Source of the DNA: Squalus acanthias
Lineage: Eukaryota
Direction of reading: 5' to 3'
Length of the DNA stretch: 64,000 nt
Assembly (NCBI GenBank): GCA_030390025.1
Contig: JASTWF010000326.1
Coordinates: forward strand, 372,001 to 436,000
In this document: positions 8,968-64,000 of the stretch, piece by piece
How positions within the stretch are numbered: position 1 is the stretch's first letter
Layout of the letters: the number at the start of each line of letters is the position of its first letter
Notes under the pieces: generated by a model
Databases searched by the model: none
The model's input: the letters and a program-made list of their open reading frames with translations, nothing else
Told to the model about the DNA's origin: nothing
Made by a program: the position numbers and the translations under genes

Positions 8968-11900
8968 GTAGCAAATTTCTGAGAAGTGTAAAAACAATAG
9001 GGCAGTAATATTAGGGGATTTCAACTACCCTAACATTAACTGGGATAGAATCAGTGTAAAAGGTATAGAGGGCGCAGAATTCTTAAAATGCATTCAGGAG
9101 AACTTTTTTAGCCAGTACGTAACAAGCCCAACAAGAGAGGGGGCGGTTCTGCACTTAGTTTTAGGGAATGAAGCTGGGCAGGTGGAAGGGGCATCAGTGG
9201 GAGAGCATATTGGCGGTAGTGATCATAATTCAGTTAGATTTAGCATAGTTATGGAAAAGGAAAAAGATAGACGAGGTGTAAAAGTTCTCGATTGGAGACA
9301 GGACAATTTTACTAAGCTGAGATGTGATTTAGCAAAAGTGGACTGGAAACAGCTACTTGAAGGTAAATCAGTGTCAGAGCAGTGGGAAGCATTCAAGGAG
9401 GAGATAGTGAGGGTTCAGAGCAAATATGTTCCCACAAAGAAAAAGGGTGGGACTCCCAAATCTAGAGCCCCCTGGATGTCAAGGGGCAGACAGGGTATGA
9501 TAAGGCAAAAAAGGAACGCTTATATCAGATACCGAGAGCTAAATATGGCAGAAAGCCTAGAGGAGTATAGAAATTGCAGGGGTGAAATTAAAAAGGAAAT
9601 TAGGAAAGCAAAGAGAGGGCATGAAAAAATATTGGCAAGTAAAATCAAGGAAAATCCAAAGATGTTTTATAAATACATAAAGAGCAAGAGGATAACTAAA
9701 GAAAGAGTAGGGTCTATTAGGGACCAAAAGGAAAGCTTGTGTGTGGAGGTGGAAGACGTGGGTATGGTTCTTAATGAATACTTTGGGCTGGATTTTCATT
9801 GATCCGTGGAGGCGGGTTTGGAGGCATGTGGGGGGTTAAAATTGTGAAAACTGGCTGGCGGGCACAAGTCCGCCTCCATCCCGCTGCCATGCAATTTTCA
9901 TTAAATCGTGTCTGCTGGTCCCGACTCCGTCCCGCCTCTAAGAGGCGGGATAGGCTGTTAAGGCCCTTACCAAGGACTAAATTGCCTCTATAATGCCATT
10001 TTGAAAGGCCTTTGTGATTTTAACCCTTTTTCTACGTGAAGCACGCCTGTTCTGAACCACGAATGTGAAACCTGGCGGGAGCACATTTGGTTGGTTGGCT
10101 GGCTGGCTGGCTGGCTGGCTATGGGGATGCATATATGGATAGCTATGTGGATGGATGGATGGAGAGGAGACATATCTGGGAGTGGTGGTGTAAAAATATC
10201 TGGGAGCAAACTTAGGACTGCTGCTGCTCATTTTGCATTCAGGTCCTCTCACAGCAAAGGCCAGGCAGTCTCTGAAGACCTTCAATGCAGCAGCAATGGT
10301 GACATCATTAGAGGCGACTTTCAGACTGAAAAAACTAATTGGTTCATGGGTTCCCACATGCTGGAACTCAATTGCCCAATTAGGTGAAAATTGCATCAAT
10401 CTCCCACATCCAATTGCAGTCGGGTGGATAACACGAAAAGTGGATGACACGACCCCAACCCACCCCAGTATCAAAATCCAGCCCTTTGTGTCTCTCTTCG
10501 CAAAAGAGAGGGACGATGCAGATGTTGTAGTTAAGGAGGAGGAGTGCAAAATATTAGATGAGATAAACATAGTGAGAGAGGAAATATTAAGGGGTTTAGC
10601 ATCTTGGAAAGTAGATAATTCACCAGGCCTGGATGAATTGTATTCCAGGCTGTTAAGAGAAGCAAGGGAGGAAATAGCGGAGGCTCTGACCATCATTTTC
10701 CAATCCTCTCTGGCTACAGGTGTGGTGCCACAGGATTGGAGGACTGCTAACATTGTACCGTTGTTTAAAAAGGGAGAAAGTGATAGATGAGTAATTACAG
10801 GCCAGTCAGCAAATTGTTGGAAAAAATTCCGGGGACAGTATTAATCGTCATTTAGAAAGGCACGGATTAATCAAGGACAGTCAGCATGAATTTGTTAAGG
10901 GAAGGTCATGTCTGACTAACTTTGATTGAATTTTTTGAGGAGGTAACAAGGAGGGTTGATGAGGGTATTACGTTTGATGTTGTCTACATGGATTTTTGCA
11001 AGGCTTTTGACAAGGTCCCACATGGCAGACTGGTCAGAAAAGTAAAAGCCCATGGGATCCAAGGGAAAGTGGCAAGTTGGATTCAAAATTGGCTCAGTGG
11101 CAGGTAGCAAAGGGTAATGGTCAACATATGTTTCTGTGACTGGAAAGCTGTTTCCAATGGGATTCTGCAGGGCTCAGTACTAGGTCCCTTGCTTTTTGTG
11201 GTATACATCAATGATTTAGACTTCAATGTAGGGGCATGATTAAGAAGTTTGCAGATGATGCAAACATTGGCCATGTGGTTGATAGTGAGGAAGAAAGCTG
11301 TAGACTGCAGGAAGATATCGATGGACTGGTCAGGGGGGCAGAAAAGTGGCAAATGGAATTCAATCCGGAGAAGTGTGAGGTAATGCATTTGGGGAGGGCT
11401 AACAAGGCACGGGAATACACAATAAATGGTAGGATGCTGCGAAGTGTAGAGGAACAGAGGGACCTTGGAGTGTGTGTTCACAGATCCCTGAAGGTAGCAG
11501 GACAGGTAGATAAGATGGTTAAGAAGGCATACGGGATACTTTCCTTTATTAGTCGAGGCATAGAATATAAGAACAGGGAGATTGTGCTTGAACTGTATCA
11601 AACACTAGTTAAGCCACAGCTAGAGTACTGTGTATAGTTCTGGTCACTGCATTACAGGAAAGATGTGATTGCACTAGAGAGAGTAAAGAGGAGATTTACA
11701 AGGATGTTGCCAGGACTGGAGAATTTTAGCTATGAGGAAAGATTGGATAGGCTGGGCTTGTTTTGTTTGCAACAGAGGAGGCTGAAGGGAGACTTAACTG
11801 AGGTGTATAAAATTATGAGGTGCCTAGATAGAATGGATAGGAAGGACCTATTTCCCTTAGCAGAGGGGTCAACAACCAGGGGGCATAGATTTAAAGTAAT

Positions 11901-16321: not shown

Positions 16322-18407
16322 ATGCCACAACAGGACAGAGAAAAGGCACCTCGCTTCTCAGACACAGTATTGGAGGCCTTGGTGCAGGAGGTCGATAGGA
16401 GGAGACAGGTCCTCTACCCACAGGGGGCCAGGAGGCCTTCCAGACACACTGTACAAAGGCAGAGGGAGGAGATAACTGAAGCGGTCACTGCCATCAGTCA
16501 CTCCCCCAGGGCCTGGATCCAGTGCCAGAAGAAGTTTAATGACCTCTCATCAGTGGTCAAGGTCAGTGAATGCATTTTCAAATGCCATATCCCACCAGCT
16601 GCACCACTATCCTCACACACTGCTCAATGCACCACACCCCCATCAATCACCTACCAACAATCTCCAGCAATCATGACTCATACCTCACAATCATAGCTTC
16701 ACCTCACCCTCACACACTGACCACTGTTGCAAGCCTCATACCCACATCTCACATCCTGCACACACTGCCAGCTATTCAACCATAACTAGCACATCACCCA
16801 AACACATTGCACCACACTCAATGACACACTTCACCCAAACACATTGCACCACACTCACTGACACACTTCACCCAAACACATTGCACCACACTCAATGACA
16901 CACTTCACCCAAACACATTGCACCACACTCACTGACACACTTCACCCAGACACATTGCACCACACTCAATGACACACTTCACCCAAACACATTGCACCAC
17001 ACTCACTGACACACTTCACCCAGACACATTGCACCACACTCACTGACACACTTCCCTTTCTCTTGCAGGCCAAGGCAGCGCCAGCAGGAGCTAACAGGCG
17101 GGCGGCAGGCACAGCTGTAGAACCTGACCCAGCTGGAGGAATTGGGTCTAGATATAATTGGAGGGGCCGTCATTGAGGCCGTGGTGATTGGCGGTGCTGA
17201 AAGCATTGATGTTGATGACGGTATGCTCATACCTAATCCTCCTTCTCACATTCCACTTCCTCCTCATCCCACAATCTCTTCTCACTTACAAGCTGCTGAT
17301 GGTGTCAGCATGCACATCTTGTTTTACCCCATCCCTTCACCACAACTCAACCCTTGTGCCTTTCTCCTTTCAGATACCCAAGAACTGCCACCAGCCCAGC
17401 CTGTGCAGGAAGAAGTAGAGGAGGAGAGTGATAGAGAAGAGACACCGTCACTCGATCTGACACTCCCAGACACCAGCTCAGAAAATGGCACTGTGCGAAC
17501 CTTAAAGGGTAGTATAGAAGCGGGATCTGCATGTGGTGAGTCACCAGGCATGAGTGGGCTGCAGCCAGGCCGGGGAAAGGGTAGCACAAGTGCCAGCTCC
17601 CCAGAGGGTGAGGTTGCAAACGAGTTCTGCTGCCTGCACACAGAAATGCTTGGTGAATTGCAGGCCTGCCAGAGAGCCTCTTGTCACTATCAAGGAGCAT
17701 GGAGGAGTCCGGCTCCAACCTTGCACAGGGCTTTGCGCGAAGCTTGGAGCCCATGATTTCAAGGATGGAAGTGATGGGCAAGTCCTTTAGAGCACTTGTG
17801 GACTCAACTACAATGCTGGTTGTGATAGGCAATGTTGCAGCTTCCATTGCTGCATAAGTGGAAGTGACCCAATGTCTGAGTTGTGCAGTGGAAGCTCAAA
17901 CCTCTGCCATGCAAGCTCAGACTTCTCTCATGCAGGCTTAACTTGCTGCCACACAAGCTCAGACTGGCTGGGTTTACGAGTGTGGAAAAAGGATTGCAGG
18001 GTGTCACAGCAGTCCAGCAATCTGTCCTCCAGCAGATTACTAGGAATGCTGAGGTGCCACCCCAGAGGAGTGGCAGTGGCTCCGTGGAGCTTGAACCTGC
18101 TGTCCTCTCTCCGGATGACAGCATTCGTACTTCCACCACTGCCACTCCACCAGTGCCTTTGAATTTGCCTGTCAGCCAGCCTGCCCAGACTGCTGTCCAT
18201 GCCGAGGTGGTGCTTTCTACAGCCAGGCCTTCTAGTCCCAGAGCTGCTCAAGGTCATCCTGCAAGGCTATCTACGGTGCCCCCCAAGGAAAGTCAGCAGC
18301 TGTCCATCAGCCATGCTGCAGCCACTGGGGTAGCACTTCATTGGAGCACTAGAATAGGACAAGGCACACGAAAAACAGACACTAAGGGAATTCACAAGGG
18401 TGATTAG
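16322..18407 (+). pseudogene. Harbinger Myb/SANT-like DNA-binding protein; exons 16322-16561, 17069-17220, 17374-18407
   Basis: MPQQDREKAPRFSD..LEALV...QCQKKFNDL (Myb/SANT-like trihelix pattern). GT-AG junctions at the same positions as in the 35135-39297 element. Downstream exons contain stops and frameshifts. Confidence 0.8.
16795..17053 (+). repeat. 37-bp tandem minisatellite, 7 copies, in Myb intron 1
   Basis: Unit CACCCA(A/G)ACACATTGCACCACACTCA(A/C)TGACACACTT, head-to-tail. Confidence 0.95.
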
Positions 18408-22739: not shown

Positions 22740-23395
22740 ATAGAAACATAGAATATAGGAGCAGGAGTAGGCCATTCGGCCCCTCATGCCTGCTCCGCCC
22801 TTCAATGCAATCATGGCTGATCATCCAAATTCAGTACCCTGTCCCTGCTTTCTCCCCATATCCCTTGATCCCCTTAGCCTTAAGAAATATATCTAACTCC
22901 TTTTTGAATATATTTAATGAATTGGACTCAACTGTCTTCTGTGGTAGAGAATTCCACAGGTTCACCACTCTCTGGGTGAAGAAATTGCTCCTCATCTCAG
23001 TCCTAAATGGCTTACCCCTTATCCTTAGACTGTGACACCTGGTTCTGGACTCCCCCGCCATTGGGAACATCCTTCCTGCAGCTAGCCTTGTTAGAATTTT
23101 ATAAGTTTCACTGAGATCCCCTCTCATTCTTCTAAACTCTAGCGAATACAAACCCAATCGACCCAATCGCTCTTCATACGTCATTCCTGCCATCCCAGGT
23201 ATCAGTCTGGTGAATCTTCGCAGCACTCTCTCCATGGCAAGAACATCCTTCCTCAGATAAGGTGACCAAAACTGCACACAATACTCAAGGTGTGGTCTCA
23301 CCAAGGCCCTGTACAACTGCAGCAAGACATCCTTGCTCCTGTACTCGAATCCTCTCACTATGAAGGCCAACATACCATTTGCCTTCTTAACCGAT
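22740..23395 (-). mobile_element. CR1 LINE 3' fragment
   Basis: ORF 22831-23373 reads LYRALVRPHLEYCVQFWSP...FFTQRVVNLWNSLP; tail at 22740. Confidence 0.92.
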
Positions 23396-25764
23396 GGAAG
23401 AGAAGAATGACATGTGGAGACATGGAGAGGAGATAGAGCCTGATGGTCTAAAGAAAGGTTGAAGTTCTAGTCCCATCCTCCTGTGCTGACCTCCAATACA
23501 AAGCTACTAGACCCTGTTCTCACCTCCCCAGAAACACTATCTTCTACTACATAGGATTTAAAAAAAAAAGGTTTTATCACATTACTTAGATAGGGAATAT
23601 TTTTTAACTTGAAACATTTCCTTGCACTTTCCTTCACCTTAGAACAAATAGCACACAATGGTAGTCTCCCTCTGAATCAACCTGACAGATGTGAGTAAAT
23701 CTTAATCTTTGAAAAATACCTCCTATCGCGCAAGGGTGAATTTCCCATTCCCCAAAGTGTCTTCTTATGACTTTTCAGTAAAATTGTTCAATTAATGCCA
23801 GCTGTGTTAGATTCAAGGGCAGTATTTTAGTGCTGTGGATTCATATCCACTGGGAACTCTTGCAATTGCCAGACTCATTTCACTTATGACTCTTAATAGG
23901 CATTAGACAAAGGACATGTTCATCCAATCTATGCTGGCTGGTTTTGAACCCAAGTCCCAATGGTGAAATAATTATTTTCAAATCCACTGTGCCACCCAAT
24001 CACTCTTTAAAAAATACCGAAACCATGAGGCTTGACATTGTTGGAGAATGTTTTTTCCCTTAATTTTGGATGCACAAAGCACCAGTTATAATTGGCCTCA
24101 TCCTCATTAAATTGATGACTGTCCTACATGGTAAGCTTTCTACAGTCGTTTAAACTGAAGGTTACATATCCAACTGATTTGGATTGTGTAGAAGAATGCA
24201 GCAGAGATGCTGGCCCTGATATTAACTCTGAGGCGGGTTGGGAGTGGGGCGGGGGGGTCCGATATTGCATAGGAAACCCGGAAGTAAGTTCAGTGCATTT
24301 TAACGCAGGCACCGCGTTATCATTTTACTCCCAGGTTCGGCGTCAATTGCACAGCAGTGGGCATGGTATGGACCTGCATGATGTAATATCAACTCCAATA
24401 TTAAAAGGGCCAATCCAAAGATGGAATTTGGAGGAGTTGGGAGTTGAAAGCAAGCGAGGAAGAACTTTGACAATGGATTCAGGACGGTCAAAGGCTGTGC
24501 CCCGCTTTAATGACGCCTCTCTTGATGTACTGCTGGGGGCAGTGATGAGCCTCAGAGAGACACTCTTCCTCAGCAATGGAAGGAAGAAACCTACTGCTGC
24601 CACAAGGAAGGCATGGCTGGAGGTGGCCGAGGAGGTCAGCAGCAGGAACATTATGGCATGCTCCAGATTCAGTGCAGGAAGCGCTTTAATGACCTAATCA
24701 GGTTAAGAAAGGTGAGTAGAGTTGCACATTCACCTACATCCTGTTGTGCACATCACACCCCCTCCCCATCACTCTGCCTTGTCAAGCCTACTCCACCAAG
24801 TCACTCCTCACACCCACTTACCTTGTAAGCGCACCCATCCTTCTCTTTCTATGCACTTCCTCACATTCCCATCTATCCATCCACCACTGCCACTCACTCG
24901 CATCCTTATGCAATTTGATGCCTCTCCCTCATCAAATGCACTCCATCCACCAAGTAAACACATGCTATTACAGTCACTTTCTCTTCTGCTCTTTTCCCTG
25001 TTGCAGAAGAAGAGAGCGCAAAACACGAAGAGGGAGAGAACTGGAGGTGAGCCTCCACAGATCTCACAATTGATAACTGGCGAGGAGGAAGTGTTGGAGA
25101 TGTGTGGCATGTGGGTGTCCCTGGAGATGTGGAGATGGGGACCTCCCAGCTACCTGGTGACGGAATTAAATATAATGCGCACACGTCATACAACACTCAA
25201 TCATGTTGACTTGATTTCAGCAGCAAGTGAAATATGATCATCTTCATAATGATACGTTGCAACATACTTACCTTGCCAATACTAATTCATATATTTTCTC
25301 TCTGACTAAGTCTTCACGCATGCAGCAGGAGTTCATGGACCTCATGGACGACAAATCCACAGAGGAGCTGAATCCTTCTGAGGGTGCACCATCACAGGAC
25401 TCATGTTTACCATGCAACAACTCAGATACTCACACTTCAGTGGGACCAGTTTGAGAGGTAGTTGGGGTTTCACCTGGTGGCTCACACTTCACATGTGAGC
25501 AAGACCAGACAGTGGTGGCAGGAAGAGCAATGAAGAGTCCGCATCAGAGGGTTCAACCCTCTCAAAGCTCTGCTGAGCTGGACACAGATGCAGTACCCCG
25601 GGAGCCATTGATGAAAAGAATAATCATTGAGGATCACCAGAAAATGTGTAATATACTGACAGGCCTTCCAAGCACACTGTCCACGATTGCAGAGAGAATG
25701 GAGGAGTCCACCTCAAGCATGAGTGGGTTGATGTCATAGGGCATTGTGAAGGAATTCTACTATA

Positions 25765-33205: not shown

Positions 33206-35651
33206 TTGCCAATGCTGGGAGGATGGGAAATTGTCTACCCTGCTGAGTCGGTGGAGGAGAGATGATTCCGGGGGTGTGGTGGGGGCGAGGGGGTCGTGGA
33301 TAGGAGCTTATATTGGCCAGCAGTGGCCCACGCCTTTTTTGTGGGCCAAGGACTCTCGCGCTTTCTGGCCACACCAAAAAACAAAAAATTCCTGAGGTGT
33401 TTTGTGAGCGGCCCTAAGTGGTTCTTTTAAGGGCTGTTTGCTGGGCTACTCCCCACCTGATGCAAATGGGCGGAGCATGCGCGGTACAATTGCTGCTCAT
33501 TTGTACCTTGAAATTGCAATTGGATTCCTACGTGCTTCATAGGCCCCCAATTTGCACGTTACAAGTAGCCTCCGACCTGAAACAGGCAGGTGTAAATTGT
33601 CCAAGTGCAAACAGGGCTGAAAGTAATCCGATGCAATCTTCGGGCCCCGACCGCCCTGTTTACACAGGCAGAAAGAGTTAAAATCGTTGCCAGTGAACCT
33701 TCTATCTTTTGTCCCTTTACCTCCAGTTTTGATCACGTCTTTAATTAGGATCATGTAATAGCTGCTTTAGAAATTAGGTCCTAACCTATTTAAATCATCC
33801 TGTGTCATCATCTGGCACAACTATTTTAATATGAAGCAAGAAATGGAAAGGTTGGTGTGAAAAAAGGATTATCTTCATTTATTATACATTTTACAAGCAT
33901 TCGTTATGTTCTTTTGCTCAGCTGAAAGAATTACACCAGCTACCAAATAAAGATCCGTTTCATTTTCTGCAAATTAGCTTGCAATTACTGCCTTGTTTGG
34001 AACAAATCCTTGTATCTCATCTCTATCGCTCCATGAAATATTTTTAATCAATGATGTGAACGAGAAACATGCTTCTTATAACCATAAAAAATTGTGGTTA
34101 TTTAGAATGCTCATTATCTCATTGCTAATCCATCCACAGATATTAAGCAACTTCAGGGGCAATAGATTTGGAGGAAAATCAACACCACATTCACAAGAGG
34201 TCAGGATTCAATTAATTCAGCACAAAATCATCCACAGATTCTATTGGATGTCATCCCGTTAAAATCAAACTAAAGTTGCTTATATTTCATGTTGGAGATT
34301 GAAGGACCAGATAGATTTTCGAGTTGGATTTAGATTTGTCTGTTAGAGATCACAGTGACTGATCTGTATTTAAGAGGTTAGCCAGGCTTACTTGCTGGCC
34401 AATTCTATTATACAAGGTATAGAGGTAAAAGCTTACTACGTTACAAATCCTCGTAAAGGGAAGAGTGATGAAACACTGAAGATTTCTTTTTACCAAATTT
34501 CTCTGAATGTTTTCTGTTTTAAAAAGGCGATGTATCATGCTTGCCTTTCCTCTCAGGTAAGAAGTAGCAGGGGGGTTTTCCAATGGGCAGCCTTTTGGTG
34601 TGAGGGCTTTCAGCATAGGCACCAACATATCTTCATACATCAGCCAAGTTGTGATTTTTCATGTTTCAGCCTAGACAGTATTGGTAGCCTATTCAACCAC
34701 ACAGGCATTAAAGCTGAGCTTGATCCTGTCGTCACCCAGACATGTGTGTATAAACACAAACACGCACACGTACACTTTCCAGTAAAGTCACCGAATAGCA
34801 ATTAGGTGCAGGAGTCCTCTCTGATTTCTTTCTTTCCTAGCTCACTGGCACTGAGGCTAATTGTAACACATTGGGAAGTAATTTGCAGCCCCTACGGGCA
34901 CGTATGAGGTGCACACGCGACCATAGTGGCTGGGCAAGTTCTGGGTTTAGACATGCGCAAAAACCCGGAACTTGCGATCTGTCAAGAATTTTCTTGACAG
35001 GTCCAACGCATCCCCAGGAAAAGGGCATCTGCGGGCGGAGAGTTGGGCTATTTGCCCAACTTCTGCCCAGCGAATGCCCGTGAAATCCTTATGCCTGATA
35101 AAAGCAGGCGTAAGGCCTGCTTTTACCAGCGTAAGGGGGAAAAATTCAGTTGGTTGCGCCTCCCGTTAGTGCCTTAAGAGGGCGCTAATGGGGCGCAAAT
35201 CAACTAGCGCCCGGGCGCAGAGATGTTTGCACCGCTCGCGAAATTAACTAGACATTTTGCGGCGGCGCTAAACAATACCGCCCCGATCTCCTGCGCACGC
35301 AGATCTTGATGTCATACGAGGGTGCAACACCCTTGTGGCGCCCCGGAGCGGAAATTGAGTGGCGCCCCCATCCTTTCCGCCTGGTGCAACCAACGACAGG
35401 AAGACTGGAATGCTCCCCAGTCACTGTGGGGCTGGGGGGTGGGTGGCGCTATTTAAAGGGGGCCTCTTCCTGTCTTTCTCTGTGGTAGACATTTTTGCAC
35501 CACTCGTTCTGAGAGAGAGAGAGAGATTCGGAGAGAGAGAAAGAGAAACTTCTGCATTGAGTCAACGCTGTGTGAGGTAGTTTTGGCTACTGATCATAAC
35601 TTTGCAGGTACTTTGGTTTTTGACCTTCATAACTTTGATTGCCAAGAGACT

Positions 35652-36812
35652 ATGGGGGCTGCACTGATTGGGGGCATTGTCCTGCGCCTGCAGAATCGGA
35701 GGACACAGAGACGCAGAGAGAGAGTGGCAATCATGGCCAGACGGAGGAGGGCCAACAGGCCTCTGTACAGGAGAACTTACCCTCCCAGGGTATATCGCCA
35801 ACAATTCTCATATATTAATATGTCTGAGGAGCAGTGTTTGCGAAGGCTGCGCTTCAGCAAGGAGGTAGTCACTGAGCTCTGCCATCTGCTGCAGCCAGAT
35901 CTGCAGCCTCAACTGAGGTCCAGGACGTCTCTGTCGGTGGCAGTGAAGATCACAGTGGCTCTGAACTTTTATGCCACTGGCTCATTTCAATCAGCTACTG
36001 GGGACATCCCCAATATCTCCCAGTTTGCGGTGCTTTGCTGCATCCGTCAGGTCACAAATGCCATCTATAAAAGGAGACGAGAGTACATCTCTTTCCCCAT
36101 GACCCCGGACAAGCAGCAAGAATGCGCAATGGGCTTTGCTAGGATAGCGGGCTTCCCCATGGTGCAGGGCGCCATTGACTGCACGCATGTGGCTTTGCGT
36201 GCTCCGCATGAGAATGCCGAGGATTTCCGCAACAGAAAGGGGTTCCATTCCTTAAACGTTCAGTTGGTCTGTGACCACAGACAGCTGATACTCGCTGTCA
36301 ATGCCCACTATCCTGGCAGCTGCCATGATGCATTCATCCTGCGCCAGACTACTGTGGCAGAACTTTTCCAGACACCGCATCAGCCAGTTGGTTGGCTTCT
36401 CGGGGACAAGGGATATCCACTGAGCACCTGGCTGATGACACCGCTCCGTACGCCCAACACCCCTGCTGAGCTGCGGTACAACGAGAGCCATCTTGCTACC
36501 AGAAACATCGTTGAGCACACAATCGGCGTGCTCAAGCAATGGTTCCGCTGTCTGGAACATTCTGGATGAGACCTGCAGTACTCGCCTGAGCGAGTCTCCC
36601 ACTTCGTAGTTGTGTGCTGCATGCTGCATAACCTGGCAATCCTCAGGACCCAGCCAATGCCACCAGGCCTTGGAGCACCACCAGAGGAGGAGGAGGAAGA
36701 GGAGGAGGAAGAGGAGGAGGATGATCAGCAGCAGCACCAAGGCGGGAGGGAGGCCCACAATGCAGAAACTGGAAGGGCCGTCCATCAACGGCTGATAGCA
36801 AGCCGCTTCTAG
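35652..36812 (+). pseudogene. Harbinger DDE transposase (about 386 codons) with one in-frame TGA at 36567-36569
   Basis: Catalytic motifs AIDCTH, LGDKGY and IVEHTIG are intact. The same frame continues after the stop (SG*DLQYSP...CCMLHNL, acidic tail). TATA-like TATTTAAA at about 35449. Confidence 0.93.
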
Positions 36813-41455: not shown

Positions 41456-42298
41456 TGTAAGACTTTCTCTTACTACTGTTCAGACCTCGAGAATTACAAA
41501 TTAGCTTAACAATGACAGACAAGGATGTGATCAATAAAATTGATCTTTATTCACACTATAGTTCAAAATTCGAGTGTATAGAAGAACCTTTGGCAATAAA
41601 TTCAAAGAACTCTCGGCAATAAATATGCCTGCAATTTATTGATTCAAACTTACATAAAAGTACCCCCTTAACAATTCAAAAGTACATAAAAGTACCCCCT
41701 TTAACAATATCTAAGCTTATGTCTGACTTTCATACATACTCCTTCATCTCTGGGTGATCGGTCAAGGGAAATTGTAAGTCAAAACATAAACCGGTCAGCT
41801 TTCTCATCTCATTCTCCATCCTGCTCTCTCTTCAGTGTTCTTCTGGTTCCTTCGGTGTTCCTTCTTCGGAATCTTGAAAACTCCCATCCCTGGGTTATCG
41901 TAAATTATTCTCTGCCTCCCTCTGACAGGTCAGTTTTAGTCCAAACCTTCCCTGATTGGAATTCCTTCCGCATGACACGTTCCTGTTCCTGTGAGATGTA
42001 TGGGGGCGAGACTTCCTTGTCAATCATGTTCTCCCTTCTTGTCCAGGTGGCCTCTCAAACAAAGAACACATACTGACCACCATTTTGTGTCTTCACAAAC
42101 AAAGAACACATACTGACCACCATTTTGTGTCTTCACAAACAAAGAACACATACTGACCACCATTTTGTGTCTTCACAAACAAAGAACACATGCTGATTTC
42201 TTACATTTTAAATCCGTCCGTTATCATCTTACAATTCGTTCGCAATTTTGATCTCCATACGGTAGCAGCAGTTTTATTACACTTTTCAGAATCTTACA
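41456..42298 (-). mobile_element. Solo LTR
   Basis: TGTAAGA...TCTTACA terminal inverted ends and exact 4-bp TSD GCTG. Orientation is inferred from the position of the tandem repeat and TTTATT. Confidence 0.75.
42056..42191. repeat. 40-bp tandem repeat, about 3.4 identical copies, inside the LTR
   Basis: Unit CAAACAAAGAACACATACTGACCACCATTTTGTGTCTTCA. Confidence 0.95.
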
Positions 42299-46359: not shown

Positions 46360-47288
46360 AATTCATTCCTGGGATGTGGGCGTCGCTGGCAAGGCCAGCA
46401 TTTATTGCCCATCCCTAATTGCCCTTGAGAAGGTGGTGGTGAGCCGCCTTCTTGAACTGCTGCAGTCCGTGTGGTGAAGGTACTCCCACAGTGCTGTTAG
46501 GGAAGGAGTTCCAGGATTTTGACCCAGCGACGATGAAGAAACGGCAATATATTTCCAAGTCAGGATGGTGTGTGACTTGGAGGGGAAATTGCAGGTGATG
46601 GTGTTCCCATGCACCTGCAGCCCTTGTCCTTCTAGGTGGTAGAGGTCGTGGGTTTGGGACATGCTGCTGAAAAAGCCTTGGCGAGTTGCTGCAGTGCATC
46701 TTGTAGATGGTACACACTGCAGCCACGGTGTACCGGTGGTGGAGGGAGTGAATGTTTAAGGTGATGGATGTGGTGCCAATCAAGCAGGCTGCTTTGTTCT
46801 GGATGGCGTCGAGCTTCTTGAGTGTTGATGGAGCTGCACTCATCCAGGCAAGTGGAGAGTATTCCATCACACTCCTGACTTGTGCCTTGTAGATGGTGGA
46901 AAGGCTTTGGGGAGTCAGCAGGTGAGTCACTCGCCGCAGAATACACAACCTCTGACCTGCTCTTGTCGCCACAGTATTTATGTGGCTGGTCCAGTTAAGT
47001 TTCTGGTCAATAGTGACGCCCCCCCCACCCCCCACCACCCCCCGCAGGATGTTGATGGTGGGGGATTCGATGCTGGTAAGGCTGTTGAATGTCAAGATGT
47101 GGTTAGACTCTCTCTTATTGGAGATGTTCATTGCCTGGCACTTGTATGGTGCAAATGTTACTTGCCACTTATCAGCCCAAGCCTGAATGTTGTCCAGTTG
47201 TACTGCATGTGGGCACGAACTGCTTCATTATCTGAGGAGTTACGAATGGAACTGAACACTGTGCAAGCATCAGCGAACATCCCCACTA
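46360..47288 (-). mobile_element. CR1-group LINE (second family) 3' fragment
   Basis: ORF 46415-47131 reads GVTIDQKLNWTSHI...YKAQVRSVMEYSPLAW...WNSFP. Confidence 0.85.
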
Positions 47289-54585: not shown

Positions 54586-55581
54586 GGGGGAAAATTCAGT
54601 TGGTTAGCGCCTCCTGCTAACGCCTGCAGCTGATGCTAACAGGGCGCTGATGCAGTAACGCCAGGGTGAGGCGAATCCGGCGGTGCACAACAAATCTGGA
54701 TTCCCCGTTGCGCCGCCGGTATGAGGTACCGCCAGGGACTTCTACGCCAGGCAGATCGTGACATCAGTGAGCGTGCAATGCTCACTGGGCACCCGATCTA
54801 CCAAATTCATTATGGACACTTACCTTTGCGCCTCGACCAGATAGGGTGAGGAGGCGCACAGCTGCAGGACGCTGGCTCCAGGGATGTTATTTAAAGGCAT
54901 CCGCATTAATCACTCGCAGCTGTCAGGGCAGGTTCGTTTCTGTGGTCTCTGTTTCGGCTATTGGATGAGTTTGCATGAGTAATTTCAAGGTTCTTTTTTT
55001 TAATCAGTGTTGTTCTGGCAAGTGCAAAGTGGCTACATTTATTGTACAAAGATTCAAACTGCTACACTTGGCAACATTATTGGGGGCTGTACTGGCGCCA
55101 CCTCGCCCTCCAGGATCTACAGCAGAGGGAGCGTAGGCAGCCAGGAATACGGGAACATGTGCACAGAGGGATGAGGAGGGACATCAGGGCTCTTACCAGG
55201 ATGACTTAAACCCCAGATCCCTTTTGCTCACCACATGCCCATCATACCTTCCCTGTGTCATGCCATATCACAGCGTCCTCCTGGGCGCAAAGGTGAAATG
55301 AGAGAGACCACAAAATATTGCAAGCTCCATTTATAAATTTATGCATAAACATATCACTCATATCACATTGATTCTAATAACTAATGATCCTTGTGCCTGC
55401 CATAGTTGAATAGCTGTCATTGTGCACAAGGCGTGAGATGTGGGTGTGAGTGTTGGTAGGTAGAGATTGTTGGTGGGTGAGCGCTGGGGGTGTGGTGCTT
55501 TGGGCAGTGTGTGAAGCTTGTGGTACAGATGGTGGTATGTAGCATTTGTTGAAGCATTCAATCACCCTGACCACCTGTCCT
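54586..55581 (+). mobile_element. Harbinger left end, transposase 5' remnant and Myb intron-1 remnant
   Basis: GGGGGAAAATTCAGTTGGTTAGCGCC matches the left TIR at 35135. TATTTAAAGG present. 55400-55580 resembles the reverse complement of 16550-16790. Confidence 0.7.
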
Positions 55582-58580
55582 TGTACAGTCATCCCCACAA
55601 TAAGAATAACATTTTCTTCCATGCCAGAAATCATAGATTCCATTGTTATTGTGTTCACACTGATGTACCAGGATTGATTTTCTCTCTACTATAAACAGCC
55701 AGTAAATACTTGCCGCATTCACTCTTTTCTAAGTTTTAATTAACTGATTCCAGAAAACATTTCATATTGCATGCCACCCCGCAATTTAGTTTTTTGGGGT
55801 TAGGAATTCATATTTTCTGACTGGGTTATTCATACATTTTGATTTATTTGGTTTAGTAAATAAATCCGTTCCTAATATTACACTGGTTAATAAATGTGTT
55901 CACAGTACTGTACTATTTACTCCAATATGGACATAATAGAAATACTAAAAATCTATTATAGCACAAGTAGATGTTCGTCACAGACAGAAAGGCCAACATT
56001 TTCAGCTCATCCAGTGGACAACGTCAGTAATTTAAAGATGGCGGCCGATGGATGGAACAGTAAATCCATTCATTGGTGTTCCATTAATATTTTGATATAC
56101 ACAGTAATAGAAGAGGACTGTCAATTAGATATATTGACAAGTTGATATGTGTCACAAGCACATTTAAACAGGAGGAAAGGATGGTCATTCATTTCAGAAC
56201 GTATCAGGGTGAAATGCATCTTGGGCGGCAGTGCAAAATGGGCGAGAGCAAATCAGCAGATCATTTTAGACCTTGCCTGATATTTGAATATCGGACATAG
56301 TGTAAAATGGGCTGCCGATTCATTATCGCCGGTTTGACTCAACCATCCATTTCACCCCATCGTCATTTGTATTAATAATTTGTGATGTCGCATAATTGGC
56401 CTAAAATTAGGAATGATGCCGTGGGTGTCTAATTGTGTAATTACAACCTACTTTTCATTGGGCACTGCCGAACGCTAAGTAAATGTTCTGGTTCAATGGG
56501 AGTGCTAGGTACGACTGTAATACAAAAGCAGCTCAGTAAGGTACAGAAACTGATTAGCAAGCATTACAGAAGGGCATGTGCTTATGTGGGTTGCTATCTT
56601 TTGCTAAATTAAAGTACAATGCAGGATAGGGGTAGGACTAGCGATTGGATCATACTTTGTGTTTTTAAGATTTGCTTTGCTTATGGTGAAAATTAAAAGC
56701 CTTAATAACCTCAATAATAAATGCCTCCACATCATGAGCCTCAGTATTAAGCAGAAAATGGACTTTCATTTTTTTTTAAAGACCTTTGGTACCTGGTTTC
56801 TCTCTTAGAAATTTCTAGACCAAAAGATAATGGGTGGCAATCCAAGTGTCATGACAAAGTTACACTTGGCAAAATATCTAACAAAATGTGCCATAAGCAC
56901 ACCTGCTTCAGTCCTCCAGCTCCTTCTCCTTGTGCTTCTCCTTGCTGAGGCAGCTGCACAGCCAGCAATGCTGAGAATGAGGTGCTGCAGTATCAATGAA
57001 CCTCCCCTTTAAGAACTGGGAAAAGCCTTTGGCAATGATGAGTTGAGATTAGACTGTATCCGATATTGGTCCACCCTTTGAGTGTCACTCCACTGAGCTA
57101 GGCCTTTAAGACTTGATTTAGCGCCCCAATCATTTCTTTGAGCAGTGAGAATGAATTTTGCGTGCAGTCTAAAGATTCTGCCCATTCCTGGGCTATAATG
57201 AATTTCTAGCCCTGCAATTCAAAGCCTTTCCCAACTTGATACTTAGCAGAACCTATTTAATTAGGTTTTCCTATTTTGTTAGATATTTTGCCAAGTGTAA
57301 CTTTGTCATGACACTTGGATTGCCACCCATTATCTTTTGGTCTAGAAATTTCTAAGAGAGAAACCAGGTACCAAAGGTCTTTTAAAAAAAAAATGAAAGT
57401 CCATTTTCTGCTTAATACTGAGGCTCATGATGTGGAGGCATTTATTATTTAGGTTATTAAGGCTTTTAATTTTCATCATAATCAAAGCAAATCTTAAAAA
57501 CACAAAGTATGATCCAATCTCTAGTCCTACCCCTATCCTGCATTGTACTTTAATTTAGCAAAAGATAGCAACCCACATAAGCACATGCCCTTCTGTAATG
57601 CTTGCTAATCAGTTTCTGTACCTTACTGAGCTGCTTTTGTATTACAGTCGTACCTAGCACTCCCATTGAACCAGAACATTTACTTAGCGTTCGGCAGTGC
57701 CCAATGAAAAGTAGGTTGTAATTACACAATTAGACACCCACGGCATCATTCCTAATTTTAGGCCAATTATGAGACATCACAAATTATTAATACAAATGAC
57801 GATGGGGTGAAATGGATGGTTGAGTCAAACCGGCGATAATGAATCGGCAGCCCATTTTACACTATGTCCGATATTGAAATATCAGGCAAGGTCTAAAATG
57901 ATCTGCTGATTTGCTCTCGCCCATTTTGCACTGCCGCCCAAGATGCATTTCACCCTGATACGTTCTGAAATGAATTACCATCATTTCCTCCTGTTTAAAT
58001 GTGCTTGTGACACTTATCAACTTGTCAATATATCTAATTGACAGTCCTCTTCTATTACTGTGTATATCAAAATATTAATGGAACACCAATGAATGGATTT
58101 ACCATTCCATCCATCGGCCGCCATCTTTAAATTACTGACGTTGTCCACTGGATGAGCTGAAAATGTTGGCCTTTCTGTCTGTGACTAACATCTACTTGTG
58201 CTATAATAGATTTTTAGTATTTCTATTATGTCCATATTAGAGTAAATAGTACAGTACTGTGAACACATTTATTAACCAGTGTAATATTAGGAACGGATTT
58301 ATTTACTAAACCAAATAAATCAAAATGTATGAATAACCCAGTCAGAAAATATGAATTCCTAACCCCAAAAAACTAAATTGCGGGGTGGCATGCAATATGA
58401 AATGTTTTCTGGAATCAGTTAATAAAAACTTAGAAAAGAGTGAATGCAGCAAGTATTTACTGGCTGCTTATAGTAGAGAGAAAATCAATCCTGGTGCATC
58501 AGTGTGAACACAATAACAATGGAATCTATGATTTCTGGCATGGAAGAAAATGTTATTCTTATTGTGGGGATGACTGTACA
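55582..58580. repeat. Large inverted repeat: arms 55582-56887 and 57273-58580, spacer 385 bp
   Basis: The arms read as reverse complements along their length, with only scattered substitutions and small indels seen by eye. Confidence 0.97.
56206..56358. mobile_element. Small MITE present in both arms of the inverted repeat
   Basis: TIR GGGTGAAATG / CATTTCACCC, ATC TSD. Confidence 0.6.
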
Positions 58581-58584
58581 GGAA

Positions 58585-59790
58585 CATTTTGCTAGCCTCA
58601 ATATATGCCATTGTTGAAATATCTGTAGCTTCCTTATGGGTGTAGCAATTAAATTACCACAATGACCTAAAATGTTAATGTTAAAAGGTAGGGATTTTAA
58701 CACAATCCCAAACTCAGTACTGTATAAGTCTCCTCACACTGGATATGACCAAAGTTCTTACTTTTAGAGAGTGTGGTAGCTTCCATCATCCACATTCTTC
58801 AATTAATTTTATTTATGACATTTCGAAGATGATAATGGATTCATTTATATAGAATTCATCGCAAAATTCTAATCATGTCCCAATTACAATCATAGTTTCA
58901 ACACCTAGCATTACCCCATATCTACCAGATGAAGGTTCAACAATGGGTGAACTTTCATTTTACTGAAACTATTAGGAGATACAAAAATTAACCTGGGTCT
59001 AATTGTGCGATATGGGAGGCTGTTAAGCAGTGTGAAAAGGAAAGATAATTAGCCTATGGAGAAGGACAAAAAATCTAAATTGACTCGGATATTAAAAAAC
59101 CCTCACAAATGAATGAATGAATTAGAAATAGATGAAATTTGGACTTCTGATAGTGACAAATACCAACAATTGACTAAATTAATGTACGAACTAAATGCTA
59201 TATATTCTTACCAGGCTACAGTTGCAATCTATCAACCTATTAGTTATATTATGAAACTAGGGACAGAGCCAGCAGACTATTAACATACCAACCGAAAGAA
59301 GCAGAACGTGCCACAGTGATTTCAGGTATAAAAGATAAAAAACAAACGTAGTATTGAACTTTTAAAGATCACTGAAATCTTTAGAGACTCCTACCACGAT
59401 CTGAAGTAAAAAGAGATTGGATAGGCTTAGTCAAGTTCTCTGAGAAGATACTCGACTTTAATTTCATATGCTGAACCAAAAGGACTTAGAAAAATCCGTG
59501 GACTTACCAGAAGTGAAAGCAATTAAATTACCAAAGAGGGAAAAGTGCTGCTAGGCAATGATTACACTAATGAGTTTTTAAATATTGTTGCAAGTCTTAA
59601 GTCCATTACTACTCAAACTTGCACATATATGTAGGAAATGGATGGAGTATCGTACTCAATTAAGCCAATAAGGATTTCTGCGATGATAATAAAAAGAAAC
59701 AACTGCTCATAACACAAAAGCTACCAACCAATCTGATTTTTAAACATAGATTGGCCATAATTGCACAATCCCTGGCATCCAAGCTGAAAC
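58585..59790 (+). mobile_element. Highly decayed L1-clade LINE ORF2 fragment
   Basis: Traces of GDFN (about 58690), IWEAVK...GKIIS (about 59010), a GK.PG.DG-like segment (about 59540) and an SY.PI.LLN.D-like segment (about 59720). Many stops. Confidence 0.55.
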
Positions 59791-60797: not shown

Positions 60798-60863
60798 TTA
60801 CAGTTCCTTAAGTATCTCTGAAAACAGTTTTTGGGACCTCCTGGATTTTGAATGGATGGTAAC

Positions 60864-61057
60864 TGTGGTAACACAATACAGCTTCCTGTGACTCGAACTT
60901 TATTGCATCACTTCCTGTGATTAGTCCAGGATAAATACTGGACTGAGCAGTTGGATCCTGGAGAGGCATAGAGTAAGACCTCTTTTGTATGTAGCACCTT
61001 TTTAGTTGATTAGAGCTTACTTTAAGTTCACCACGCGTAAGGCTCATTCTTACGACA
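60864..61057 (+). mobile_element. 5' LTR (194 bp) of a Ty3/Gypsy retrotransposon
   Basis: TGTGGTAA...TTACGACA terminal inverted repeat (7/8 match) ending 78 bp before the gag ATG. The 3' LTR lies outside the window, so the boundaries are unconfirmed. Confidence 0.75.
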
Positions 61058-61135
61058 ATTTAATCAACTTTGAAAAACTTCGCACTCAAACTTTTTGGAC
61101 GAACTCGGAACTAAGGATCCAGGGAATCACCCATC

Positions 61136-64000
61136 ATGGAAAACATCCTTAAACCATCGCGTCTTGACTTGGACCCAAACACCCCAGCAGCCGGTAAGGT
61201 GTGGAAACACTGGTATCGCACGTTTGACAATTTTCTCGAATATTGCAAGGCTGATGATGACACAAAGTTGCGGATACTCATCAACTGTGTCACTCCGAAT
61301 GTATTTCAGTATGTCGAGGAATGGGGCAGTTACGAGGAGGCAATTCGGACGCTTAAAAGACTATATACTAAGACACCGAATGAGGTCTATGCCAGACATC
61401 TACTAGCTACAGCCCAACAAGGGCCGGAGGAATCCATTGATAAATTCCTCCAAGAGCTTCGCAGACTTAGTATGGACTGTAACTTTCAGGCGGCCTCAGC
61501 TGAGCTGTACCGTGAAGAAATGATCCGTGATGCTTTCATCTGCGGGCTTGCCTCCCCATTTATACGCCAGCGTCTACTGGAAAGTAAGACACTTGAGCTT
61601 CAGAGAGCTTATGATATGGCTTGCTCTCTAGATCTGGCAAAAAGAAATGCAGACCTTTATACAGTGCCCAGACCTCGGTCTGCTGCCTTAACTACAGTCA
61701 GGCAATTTAAGAGGCCACAGGTGAACTCTATTAGGGAGGACTTTATCCCTGACGATCAATCTGATGACTTCACTGATGAAGAGGATGATGACCCCACTGT
61801 GGCAGCCTCTTGGCAATCTAAGAAATGCTTCTTTTGTGGTGATGAGTTTCACCCTCGGAAATTCTGCCCTGCTCGCAATGCGTTTTGCAGTCATTGCAAC
61901 AAAAAGGGTCATTTTGCAAAGGTTTGCCTATCAAGAGCCTCTACGAGGGCTTATCAAGCTAAGTCCTACCGAACTGCCCCGGTAAGGGCCTATCAAGATG
62001 TTCCGGCTAAAATCTATCGTGCTTCCTCTCGGGTTTTCTCTCGAAGAAACACACCTAGAGTTTCAGCCACTCTTTGTGCAACGACACCAATTACAGCTGC
62101 TTGTCCTCAGAACCTATTCCATGCAGCTACAAAAGCATCAATTAATGGACATACTTTAGATGCCTCAATTGACTCAGGTAGCACTGATAGTTTCATTAGG
62201 GAACAGATTGTTGCAGAGTTAAAGCTACATGTTTTCCCATCGGACCAGGCAATTGCGATGGCTCAGTCATCACTTAATACCAGAATTTCTGGCTTTTGTA
62301 TGGTTGAAATAACACTTAATGGTCACAGGTATCCCTCCACCCGGCTTTCGGTGCTCAAGGACTTATGTAGTGATCTTATCTTAGGGCTGGATTTTCAAAA
62401 GCAGCATAAGAAGCTCACCATTGAGTTCGGCGGATCCAAACCTGAACTCACTATTTCTAATATACGACCTCGATTACCGTTCTGTGCATTGTCAGCAGCT
62501 TCACTGGATGAACCCTCACTGTTTACCAGTATCCCTCCTCGATGCAAACCGATTATAACAAAGTCACAACGTTTCAGTCAGGAAGACCAGTCTTTTATTG
62601 CGGCTGAGATTTCTCGGCTTTTAGCAGAGGATATCATCGAGCCTTGTTCGTCGCCATGGCGCGCCCAGGTCGTTATTGTTAAGAACCCTCTACAACCTCA
62701 CAAGAAACGGCTGTGCATTGACTATTCACAGACCATCAATCAATATACGGACTTGGACGCATACCCATTGCCGCGCATCGATGATATGGTTAATAAACTG
62801 GCTGAGTACACGGTGTTCTCAACATATGATCTGAAAAGTGCCTATCATCAGGTACCCTTGAAGGTCTCAGACAAGCAGTATACGGCCTTTGAAGCCAATG
62901 GACGGCTGTATCAATTTCGTCGCCTCCCCTTTGGGGTCACTAATGGAGTGGCTGTCTTCCAGCGAGCAATGGATGACCTGGTCAAACAGGAAGACTTGAA
63001 GGATACGTTTCCTTATCTGGACAATATTACTGTTGCAGGTCGCAATCAGCGGGAACATGACGCCAATCTCCAACGATTTTGGGATGCACTCCAGCACAGT
63101 AATTTGACATTAAATGCGGCTAAATCCATTGAGTCACAACCAACCATCAACATCCTTGGCTATTGTGTGGGCAATGGCATCATTAAACCTGACCCTGAAA
63201 GGCTTCGCCCACTCCAAGAGCTCCCGCCACCTAAGAATCCGGCCTCCTTGCGCCGGGCCCTCGGCCTGTTTGCATACTATGCTAAATGGATTCCTAACTT
63301 CTCGGACCGAATCCAACCTCTACTGAAGGCCAGCACATTCCCACTAGACACAGCGGCTGTTGCAGCCTTTAACCTCCTGAAAAAACAGTTGGAGAAAGCG
63401 GCTCTTCACTCCATCGATGAGCGTCTTCCTTTTGTTGTTGAGTGTGATGCCTCGGAGGTGGCGATCTCGGCCACTCTGAATCAGGAAGGTCGTCCGGTGG
63501 CATTTTTGTCCAGGACTTTTCAAGGGGCTGAGCTACATTATCCTCCAGTCGAGAAAGAAGCTACAGCCATCATAGAGGCAGTACGGAAGTGGACTCATCT
63601 CCTAGCTCGCCAGCACTTTACCTTAATCACGGACCAGCGATCGGTCGCCTTCATGCTCGATAATCGAAAACGGACCAAAATTAAAAATAATAAAATCCAG
63701 CTTTGGCGGCTGGAATTGGCCTCTTTTGGTTACACCATCCACTATCGACCTGGCAAGGAGAATGTGGCTCCGGATACCCTCACACGAGCATTCTGCTCCG
63801 CCATGGCACCCTCTACGCTCGTAGACATCTATGATGGGTTGTGTCATCCGGGCGTTACTCGCATGCTACACTTCGTGCGGTCCCGAAATCTCCCATTCTC
63901 TACCGGGGATGTAAAGAAGATGTGCTCGGACTGCAGAGTCTGTGCGGAATTGAAACCTCAGTTTTTCCGCCCCTCGGGTGGTATACTCATACATGCGACC
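61136..64000 (+). CDS. Ty3/Gypsy gag-pol polyprotein (Mag-like), single frame running off the window
   Basis: Starts MENILKPSRLDLDP. Two CCHC knuckles (CFFCGDEFHPRKFC, CSHCNKKGHFAKVC), protease IDSGS, RT (FSTYDLKSAYHQ, LPFGV, YLDN at 63014-63025), RNase H (ECDAS, EKEA, TDQR) and integrase start (YDGLCHPG...CRVC). The RT motifs are in frame with the ATG. Confidence 0.93.
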   Translation, partial: MENILKPSRLDLDPNTPAAGKVWKHWYRTFDNFLEYCKADDDTKLRILINCVTPNVFQYVEEWGSYEEAIRTLKRLYTKTPNEVYARHLLATAQQGPEESIDKFLQELRRLSMDCNFQAASAELYREEMIRDAFICGLASPFIRQRLLESKTLELQRAYDMACSLDLAKRNADLYTVPRPRSAALTTVRQFKRPQVNSIREDFIPDDQSDDFTDEEDDDPTVAASWQSKKCFFCGDEFHPRKFCPARNAFCSHCNKKGHFAKVCLSRASTRAYQAKSYRTAPVRAYQDVPAKIYRASSRVFSRRNTPRVSATLCATTPITAACPQNLFHAATKASINGHTLDASIDSGSTDSFIREQIVAELKLHVFPSDQAIAMAQSSLNTRISGFCMVEITLNGHRYPSTRLSVLKDLCSDLILGLDFQKQHKKLTIEFGGSKPELTISNIRPRLPFCALSAASLDEPSLFTSIPPRCKPIITKSQRFSQEDQSFIAAEISRLLAEDIIEPCSSPWRAQVVIVKNPLQPHKKRLCIDYSQTINQYTDLDAYPLPRIDDMVNKLAEYTVFSTYDLKSAYHQVPLKVSDKQYTAFEANGRLYQFRRLPFGVTNGVAVFQRAMDDLVKQEDLKDTFPYLDNITVAGRNQREHDANLQRFWDALQHSNLTLNAAKSIESQPTINILGYCVGNGIIKPDPERLRPLQELPPPKNPASLRRALGLFAYYAKWIPNFSDRIQPLLKASTFPLDTAAVAAFNLLKKQLEKAALHSIDERLPFVVECDASEVAISATLNQEGRPVAFLSRTFQGAELHYPPVEKEATAIIEAVRKWTHLLARQHFTLITDQRSVAFMLDNRKRTKIKNNKIQLWRLELASFGYTIHYRPGKENVAPDTLTRAFCSAMAPSTLVDIYDGLCHPGVTRMLHFVRSRNLPFSTGDVKKMCSDCRVCAELKPQFFRPSGGILIHAT

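What the first reader, a model, noticed from the sequence alone, without database searches (positions are those of the whole stretch)
63014..63025. Reverse transcriptase active site is YLDN instead of YxDD in an otherwise open gag-pol
Seen: TAT CTG GAC AAT in frame (codons 627-630). The first catalytic Asp (YDLKSAY) and the RNase H acidic residues are intact. Known: YxDD is nearly invariant in RTs. From memory and unverified, a D-to-N change at this position in Ty1 leaves polymerase activity but blocks transposition, and a natural Asp-to-Asn Gypsy subgroup exists in aquatic animals. Inference: this is a lineage trait, not decay. It co-occurs with the non-tRNA PBS, suggesting an unusual RT chemistry and priming package.
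Basis: partly seen in the sequence, partly recalled or inferred. Interest (0 to 1): 0.7.

Follow-up and report, generated by a model that had tools for sequence, protein, structure and literature searches.

The report
Asparagine-site reverse transcriptase in animal retrotransposons
Thousands of young copies of this jumping gene carry asparagine where reverse transcriptases almost always have a third catalytic aspartate, and its relatives across animals have switched between the two residues repeatedly, so the enzyme likely works either way, and it likely starts copying from a fold-back of its own RNA rather than from a tRNA.

Summary
Observation confirmed: TAT CTG GAC AAT (YLDN) at 63014-63025, codons 627-630 of a 1318-aa gag-pol in a complete 4441-bp Ty3/Gypsy element (194-bp LTRs, 5-bp target duplication). 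It is not decay. 2235 places in this genome carry the exact AAT context and none carries an Asp codon; two further families here also have YLDN, under purifying selection. The element belongs to a well-supported animal clade (signature SPWRAQ, DYSxTIN, PFGVTNGV). About half of the clade's representatives have Asn and half Asp, the state is fixed within families, Asp is basal, and the site changed at least 5 times. The primer-binding position is not tRNA-type: it pairs over 11-21 nt with a stretch in the element's own LTR, with compensatory changes, as in Tf1 self-priming. This also holds in both YLDD relatives I could test, so the proposed 'Asn plus priming' package is not supported. Natural YxDN (C. 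elegans Cer7-12) and the Ty1 D211N mutant are in print. I could not find the recalled aquatic-animal paper. The clade is probably Cigr-1, but this is not anchored by sequence.

The parts
60859..60863 (+). 5' copy of the 5-bp target-site duplication GTAAC; its partner follows the 3' LTR beyond the window end
60864..61057 (+). 5' LTR, 194 bp, TG...CA, 2 mismatches to the 3' LTR (which lies beyond the window, at 65111-65304 if window numbering is continued; locus L031)
60930..60937 (+). TATA-like stretch, about 74 nt upstream of the pairing site; role untested
61004..61014 (+). LTR stretch complementary to the PBS position (candidate self-primer). In sister copies it ends in ATTAAA, a poly(A)-signal-like hexamer; this copy has one G:U pair
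61059..61069 (+). PBS position, 1 nt after the LTR, TTTAATCAACT; not tRNA-type
61136..64000 (+). single gag-pol ORF (1318 aa, continues 1092 nt past the window end): Gag, protease, RT, RNase H, integrase; no chromodomain or env hit
61826..61927 (+). two CX2CX4HX4C zinc knuckles of Gag
   Evidence: sequence
62171..62179 (+). protease DSG active site
62828..62830 (+). RT first catalytic Asp565 (YDLKSAY)
63014..63025 (+). RT motif C, YLDN: Asp629 kept, Asn630 in place of the third catalytic Asp
63446..63775 (+). RNase H acidic residues D771, E806/E808, D833, D880

Best explanation
YLDN is the fixed state of a young, high-copy Ty3/Gypsy family whose reverse transcriptase likely polymerises with two catalytic aspartates, in a clade where the third position has switched between Asp and Asn several times. 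Shown: the family-wide Asn, intact recent insertions, purifying selection on the RT, Asp at the base of the clade, repeated switching, and a PBS-to-LTR pairing kept by compensatory changes in Asp and Asn members alike. Inferred: Asp565 and Asp629 hold the metals and Asn630 is tolerated. The clade's remodelled active-site surroundings (SPWRAQ, a one-residue insertion in DYSxTIN, NG/AV in place of NAP) are shared by both states and so predate the Asn; they may be what permits it. Inferred: minus-strand synthesis is primed Tf1-style by an about 11-nt piece of the element's own 5' RNA, cut 3' of the paired stretch. The same pairing would hide the poly(A)-like hexamer in the 5' LTR.
For: 2235 AAT-context matches against 0 Asp. 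30 of 30 fetched RT loci (one is the window itself) and 20 of 20 full-length sisters read LDN. 20 of 21 elements have paired LTRs and 5-bp duplications, 9 of them with identical LTRs. A search with a YLDD relative as query returned two more families; 15 of 16 fetched read YLDN and 1 YLYN. Between families synonymous sites are saturated while pN is about 0.09; the one measurable pair gives dN/dS 0.043. Homologues: 98 of 120 xxDN, 22 xxDD. 50%-identity representatives: 48 DN and 44 DD among 96 in the clade, 52 of 52 DD outside it. Tree: clade support 100, Asp rows basal, 13 changes in 100 rows, 5 forced by strong branches; one Asn clade rejected, p-AU 2.8e-7. State fixed in 10 of 10 clusters. 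Asn is encoded by both AAT (40) and AAC (16). PBS pairing of 11-21 nt in 21 of 21 elements tested, at most 2 of 300 shuffles as good. Ty1 D211N keeps polymerase activity (PMC2148107).
Against: No enzyme was assayed. In Ty1 the same change lowers kpol 223-fold and stops transposition unless RNase H suppressors are present (PMC2148107). No residue in RT or RNase H tracked the D/N state across 8 sister pairs, so no specific compensator is identified. No RNA reads were laid (0 reads from the only raw-read run), so the transcription start, cleavage and poly(A) sites are unknown. A TATA-like box 74-90 nt upstream in the two own-genome families examined would put the start upstream of the pairing site, unlike Tf1. 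Only 2 YLDD elements had usable LTR ends. The AU subset was chosen after seeing the trees.
Confidence: 0.8

Rival explanations
1. The Asn is adaptive and mechanistically tied to self-priming, for instance easing initiation on a short RNA:RNA duplex or suiting the metal content of aquatic hosts.
For: Both traits occur in this clade. Asn is frequent and kept through synonymous codons. Named Asn hosts are mostly aquatic (corals, crustaceans, a shark, a sea slug); the two named Asp hosts are a leafhopper and a parasitic nematode.
Against: Both testable YLDD elements have the same self-pairing (13 and 16 Watson-Crick pairs). Multi-member YLDD clusters (444 and 242 members) lie inside the Asn-rich group next to this element. 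Dicrocoelium has YVDN. Tf1 self-primes, and no Asn is mentioned for it in the passages I read.
Confidence: 0.1
2. YLDN elements have a dead polymerase and are copied in trans by a YLDD enzyme from another element.
For: D-to-N here blocks Ty1 transposition and inactivates retroviral RTs (PMC2148107 introduction; PMC554778 passage).
Against: The rest of the RT is under strong purifying selection. Full open frames are common among the 150 scored hits. A YLDD query found only Asn families in this genome (that search scored 38 of 25,601 candidates, so it is a floor). The other two aspartates are near invariant (119 and 120 of 120).
Confidence: 0.06
3. A private GAT-to-AAT mutation or sequencing error in this copy.
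For: GAC-GAT contains a CpG, so this change is mutationally easy. The window copy does carry some private substitutions elsewhere.
Against: 2235 to 0 in the genome; conserved in distant relatives.
Confidence: 0.01

Closest known systems
Cigr-1 clade of Ty3/Gypsy (founder from Ciona intestinalis; GyDB; also in molluscs and annelids, PMC6238403, PMC8556966)
   Same: The marker set listed for Cigr-1 in PMC2774666 supplement 3 (two CCHC, protease ILG, integrase after RNase H, no chromodomain, no env) matches.
   Different: No Cigr-1 sequence was available, so membership is not anchored, and the Osvaldo clade shares the same marker code. I saw no mention of YxDN or self-priming for Cigr-1 in the passages and supplement rows searched.
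Tf1/Tf2, Tj1 and the Tf1/sushi group (self-primed Ty3/Gypsy; PMC7175516, PMC4600332, passages)
   Same: PBS position complementary to about 11 nt of the element's own 5' LTR RNA; no tRNA site.
   Different: No chromodomain hit here. The paired stretch often ends in a poly(A)-like hexamer. Whether it is the very 5' end of the RNA is unknown. The RT carries Asn in about half the clade.
Ty1 RT D211N laboratory mutant (PMC2148107); similar flexibility reported there for Ty3 RT
   Same: Same position, same substitution.
   Different: Ty1 D211N does not transpose without RNase H suppressors; here the Asn state has amplified to thousands of copies.
C. elegans Cer7-Cer12 BEL/Pao elements with YVDN (Bowen and McDonald, as cited in PMC554778, passage)
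   Same: A natural YxDN motif in an LTR retrotransposon group, activity untested as of that paper.
   Different: Different superfamily, so an independent origin.
Ty3 RT (PDB 4OL8)
   Same: Best sequence match (E 7e-36) and best fold match (E 1.9e-30, TM 0.76).
   Different: About 29% identity; YLDD.

Membership tests
Ty3/Gypsy LTR retrotransposon | LTRs with TG...CA, target-site duplication, polypurine tract | tested here: met
Ty3/Gypsy LTR retrotransposon | domain order PR-RT-RH-IN and RT closest to Ty3 | tested here: met
Ty3/Gypsy LTR retrotransposon | canonical YxDD | tested here: not met
   YLDN; a variant, since 44 of 96 clade representatives keep DD
Cigr-1 clade | groups with Cigr-1 in an RT tree | not testable with these tools
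   no Cigr-1 sequence among homologues or in supplements searched
Cigr-1 clade | two CCHC, protease ILG, IN after RH, no chromodomain, no env | tested here: met
   not diagnostic, shared with Osvaldo
Cigr-1 clade | protease GANG-type flap and loss of the GPY/F module | tested here: inconclusive
   judged by eye only from the translation
Tf1/sushi chromoviruses | chromodomain at the integrase end | tested here: not met
   no Pfam chromo hit in the 1318-aa protein
Tf1-type self-priming | PBS complementary to a 5' LTR stretch | tested here: met
   21 of 21; 14 of 16 in two more families
Tf1-type self-priming | primer is the first 11 nt of the RNA, released by RNase H | tested here: inconclusive
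   no reads laid; 8 of 11 distinct sites begin AG 11 nt before their 3' end, but a TATA-like box lies further upstream in the own-genome families
   not found in searches

The most novel reading that the evidence does not exclude
An animal-wide, non-chromovirus Ty3/Gypsy clade has made the third catalytic carboxylate of reverse transcriptase optional and flips it between Asp and Asn again and again, including reversals, while priming on a fold-back in which the self-primer is also the element's poly(A) signal. One duplex would then both silence 5' polyadenylation and supply the primer, and none of this would be described in print.
Probability: 0.3. Interest if true: 0.68.

Novelty: new variant of a known kind. 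Interest (0 to 1): 0.47.

Why it matters
The YxDD motif is treated as obligatory, and the role of its last Asp has been probed mainly with crippled laboratory mutants. A family that reached thousands of copies with Asn shows that the residue is dispensable in the right context. Sister families about 70% or more identical that differ in D/N supply natural matched enzymes to ask what it does (metal A binding, pyrophosphate release, fidelity). In practice, annotation pipelines should not call YxDN copies dead. The covarying fold-back extends likely self-priming beyond the Tf1/sushi group. Limits: natural YxDN and tolerant mutants are already known, the subgroup may be published in a journal I could not search, and an earlier window of this scan reported the same clade.

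Tried and rejected
Literature: 10 searches did not find a paper on a YxDN Gypsy subgroup; the library lacks most subscription journals. 'Smaug' as a clade name (recalled) led only to an unrelated gene. A mis-recalled PMC id opened an unrelated paper. PMC13524379 and PMC12471100 passages were not informative. Some supplements of PMC6238403 (file 2) and PMC8556966 (files 11, 13, 14) could not be searched and may bear on clade assignment. The first pattern counts (0 and 21) included a base private to a small subfamily and were redone. RNA evidence: the only raw-read run laid 0 reads, and contigs cannot show ends. Compensatory residues: columns associated with D/N in a naive test did not hold in sister pairs. 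An intron in the LTR that would build the primer (lead from e1-7811049) was rejected by eye: the GT...AG span is only 33 nt here, and pairing already crosses the AG unspliced in relatives. A CpG-decay origin for Asn in individual copies does not explain the pattern, because states are fixed in families and 31 of 56 Asn loci have GAT before the Asn codon. The AlphaFold model (pLDDT 89) confirms the fold but places no metals. One search was an uninformative self-alignment. The careful tree did not finish; its quick tree was used.

Full report
Observation. Window 63014-63025 is TATCTGGACAAT, YLDN, residues 627-630 of an ORF that starts at ATG 61136 and is open to the window end. The neighbouring genome stretch (L031) closes the ORF at 1318 aa and completes a 4441-bp element: 194-bp TG...CA LTRs with 2 mismatches, a polypurine tract and a 5-bp target duplication GTAAC. 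Pfam gives protease, RT, RNase H and integrase core in Ty3/Gypsy order, with no chromodomain or env hit. The motif aligns with YLDD of Ty3 RT, and the predicted RT-RNase H fold matches Ty3 RT best (pLDDT 89; TM 0.76). Asn630 therefore replaces the third catalytic Asp; the other two and the RNase H acids are present.

Private or inherited? The genome is 3.7 Gb. All 30 RT loci fetched from a protein search read YLDN, one being the window itself, but these were ranked by likeness to the query. Pattern counts avoid that bias: 2235 exact matches to the AAT context, 0 with an Asp codon, 0 with any other first base. The degenerate search can see mutants (2 found at the second base; 0 at a neighbouring A), so zero Asp is in line with a low mutation rate from an Asn-bearing source. 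I fetched 20 sisters, 16 chosen for full open frames and 4 for broken ones. With the window copy, 20 of 21 showed paired LTRs and 5-bp duplications, 9 had identical LTRs, and identity to the window copy was 98.6-99.5%; all 20 sisters read LDN. A search with a YLDD relative (P0010) as query returned two other families at about 81% RT identity; 15 of 16 fetched read YLDN and one degraded copy YLYN. Between families synonymous sites are saturated while pN is about 0.09, and dN/dS is 0.043 for the one measurable pair. The Asn-bearing RT has thus been amplified recently and kept under purifying selection.

The clade. Of 120 database homologues, 98 have xxDN and 22 xxDD; of 80 metagenome loci, 56 DN, 22 DD and 2 other. 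Among 148 new 50%-identity representatives there is a gap between 44% and 38% identity. The 96 above it share the signature SPWRAQ, DYSxTIN, PFG(V/L)xN(G/A)V and hold 48 DN, 44 DD, 2 other and 2 uncovered; the 52 below it are all DD. A rooted tree of 114 rows (quick search, LG+G4; representatives with under 200 aligned residues or no D/N call left out) gives the clade support 100, places Asp rows at its base, and needs 13 changes, 5 forced by strong branches. The closer set needs 9, with 6 forced. A single Asn clade is rejected (p-AU 2.8e-7, 29 rows picked after seeing the trees). Within 10 of 10 sequence clusters the state was uniform among listed members that cover the motif (51 DD in six clusters, 30 xxDN in four), including YLDD clusters of 444 and 242 members in the same strongly supported group as this element. 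Switching, probably in both directions, is therefore a property of whole families. No residue in RT or RNase H followed the state across eight sister pairs. Named Asn hosts are corals, crustaceans, a sea slug, a shark and the fluke Dicrocoelium; named Asp hosts are a leafhopper and Trichuris.

Priming. The 5' LTR is followed by ATTTAATCAACT, not a TGG tRNA site. Bases 61059-61069 pair with 61004-61014 in the LTR (10 Watson-Crick pairs and one G:U here; the sisters' site ends in AAA and pairs fully). Of 80 metagenome loci, 27 showed a flanking repeat. I dropped 7 that were cut by contig ends or misplaced (two of them YLDD) and set the LTR end by hand in 8. In all 21 elements tested (20 plus the window) the post-LTR sequence pairs over 11-21 nt with an LTR stretch, starting 1 nt after the LTR in 19, with at most 2 of 300 shuffles as good. 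Thirteen come from one assembly, so this is about 11 distinct sequence types, which differ in sequence yet keep the pairing. Both YLDD elements (L057, L118) have it. The two other families in this genome show it in 14 of 16 copies. In 7 of the 11 types the paired stretch ends in AATAAA or ATTAAA (counting this family by its sisters), in 2 in GTTAAA, and 8 of 11 begin with AG eleven bases from the 3' end. This resembles Tf1, whose first 11 bases pair with the PBS and are released by RNase H (PMC7175516 and PMC4600332, passages). RNA ends could not be checked, and a TATA-like box further upstream in the own-genome families leaves the start site open.

Mechanism. Most likely (0.8) the enzyme works with two aspartates, and the clade's active site, remodelled before the Asn appeared, tolerates either residue at the third position; priming is likely on the element's own RNA and independent of the D/N state. 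The copy counts, selection, tree pattern and covarying duplex are shown. Catalytic competence, the permissive role of the clade signature, primer cleavage and poly(A) masking are inferred. Rivals: Asn adaptive and tied to priming or habitat (0.1), trans-mobilised dead polymerase (0.06), private mutation (0.01).

Known context. Ty1 D211N keeps polymerase activity, lowers kpol 223-fold, prefers Mn2+ and blocks transposition unless RNase H suppressors arise; Ty3 is reported as similarly flexible (PMC2148107: abstract, introduction, passages). C. elegans Cer7-12 carry YVDN (PMC554778, passage). The recalled aquatic Asp-to-Asn Gypsy paper was not found in ten searches; this does not show it is unpublished. 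Structural markers fit the Cigr-1 clade as tabulated in PMC2774666 supplement 3, but they are shared with Osvaldo and no Cigr-1 sequence was available. The Cigr-1 label comes from my recall and an earlier AI note (e1-9160346), which reported the same toggling in another genome; I had reached the toggling and self-priming readings before seeing it, and it is not independent support.

Verdict. Real; a family and clade trait rather than decay; a new variant of a known kind, possibly partly published. Interest 0.47: unusual enzymology with ready natural test pairs, tempered by precedents and by the lack of biochemical or RNA evidence.

Noticed in passing
window 55576-58586: About 3-kb element with inverted arms of about 1.3 kb at 98-99% complementarity around a 385-nt centre; likely a young non-autonomous fold-back DNA transposon.
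   Followed up: no
window 35457-36569 (+): Harbinger-type DDE_Tnp_4 transposase frame (E 6e-33); related repeats recur across the window in both orientations.
   Followed up: partly
window 8972-9802 (+): LINE endonuclease fragment (Exo_endo_phos_2); further LINE RT-like fragments at 22831-23466 and 46415-47224 were judged by eye.
   Followed up: no
G000:C1:564549-573071: Three motif matches spaced 4247 bp apart, equal to element length minus one LTR, suggesting a tandem array sharing LTRs.
   Followed up: no
window 61136-64000: This copy has private substitutions not shared by 19-20 of 20 sisters, including one at a zinc-binding position of the integrase and one in the LTR hexamer, so this particular insertion may be impaired for reasons unrelated to YLDN.
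   Followed up: partly
window 62573-63295: The best-scoring database RTs with names come from corals and crustaceans (68-72%) rather than from the one shark protein listed (61%); horizontal transfer is possible but was not tested.
   Followed up: no
L031:1800-6400: Near-identical element in public runs of five coded organisms (52-85% of sampled words).
   Followed up: partly
window 16753-17091 and 42047-42196: Minisatellites with 37-nt and 40-nt units.
   Followed up: no
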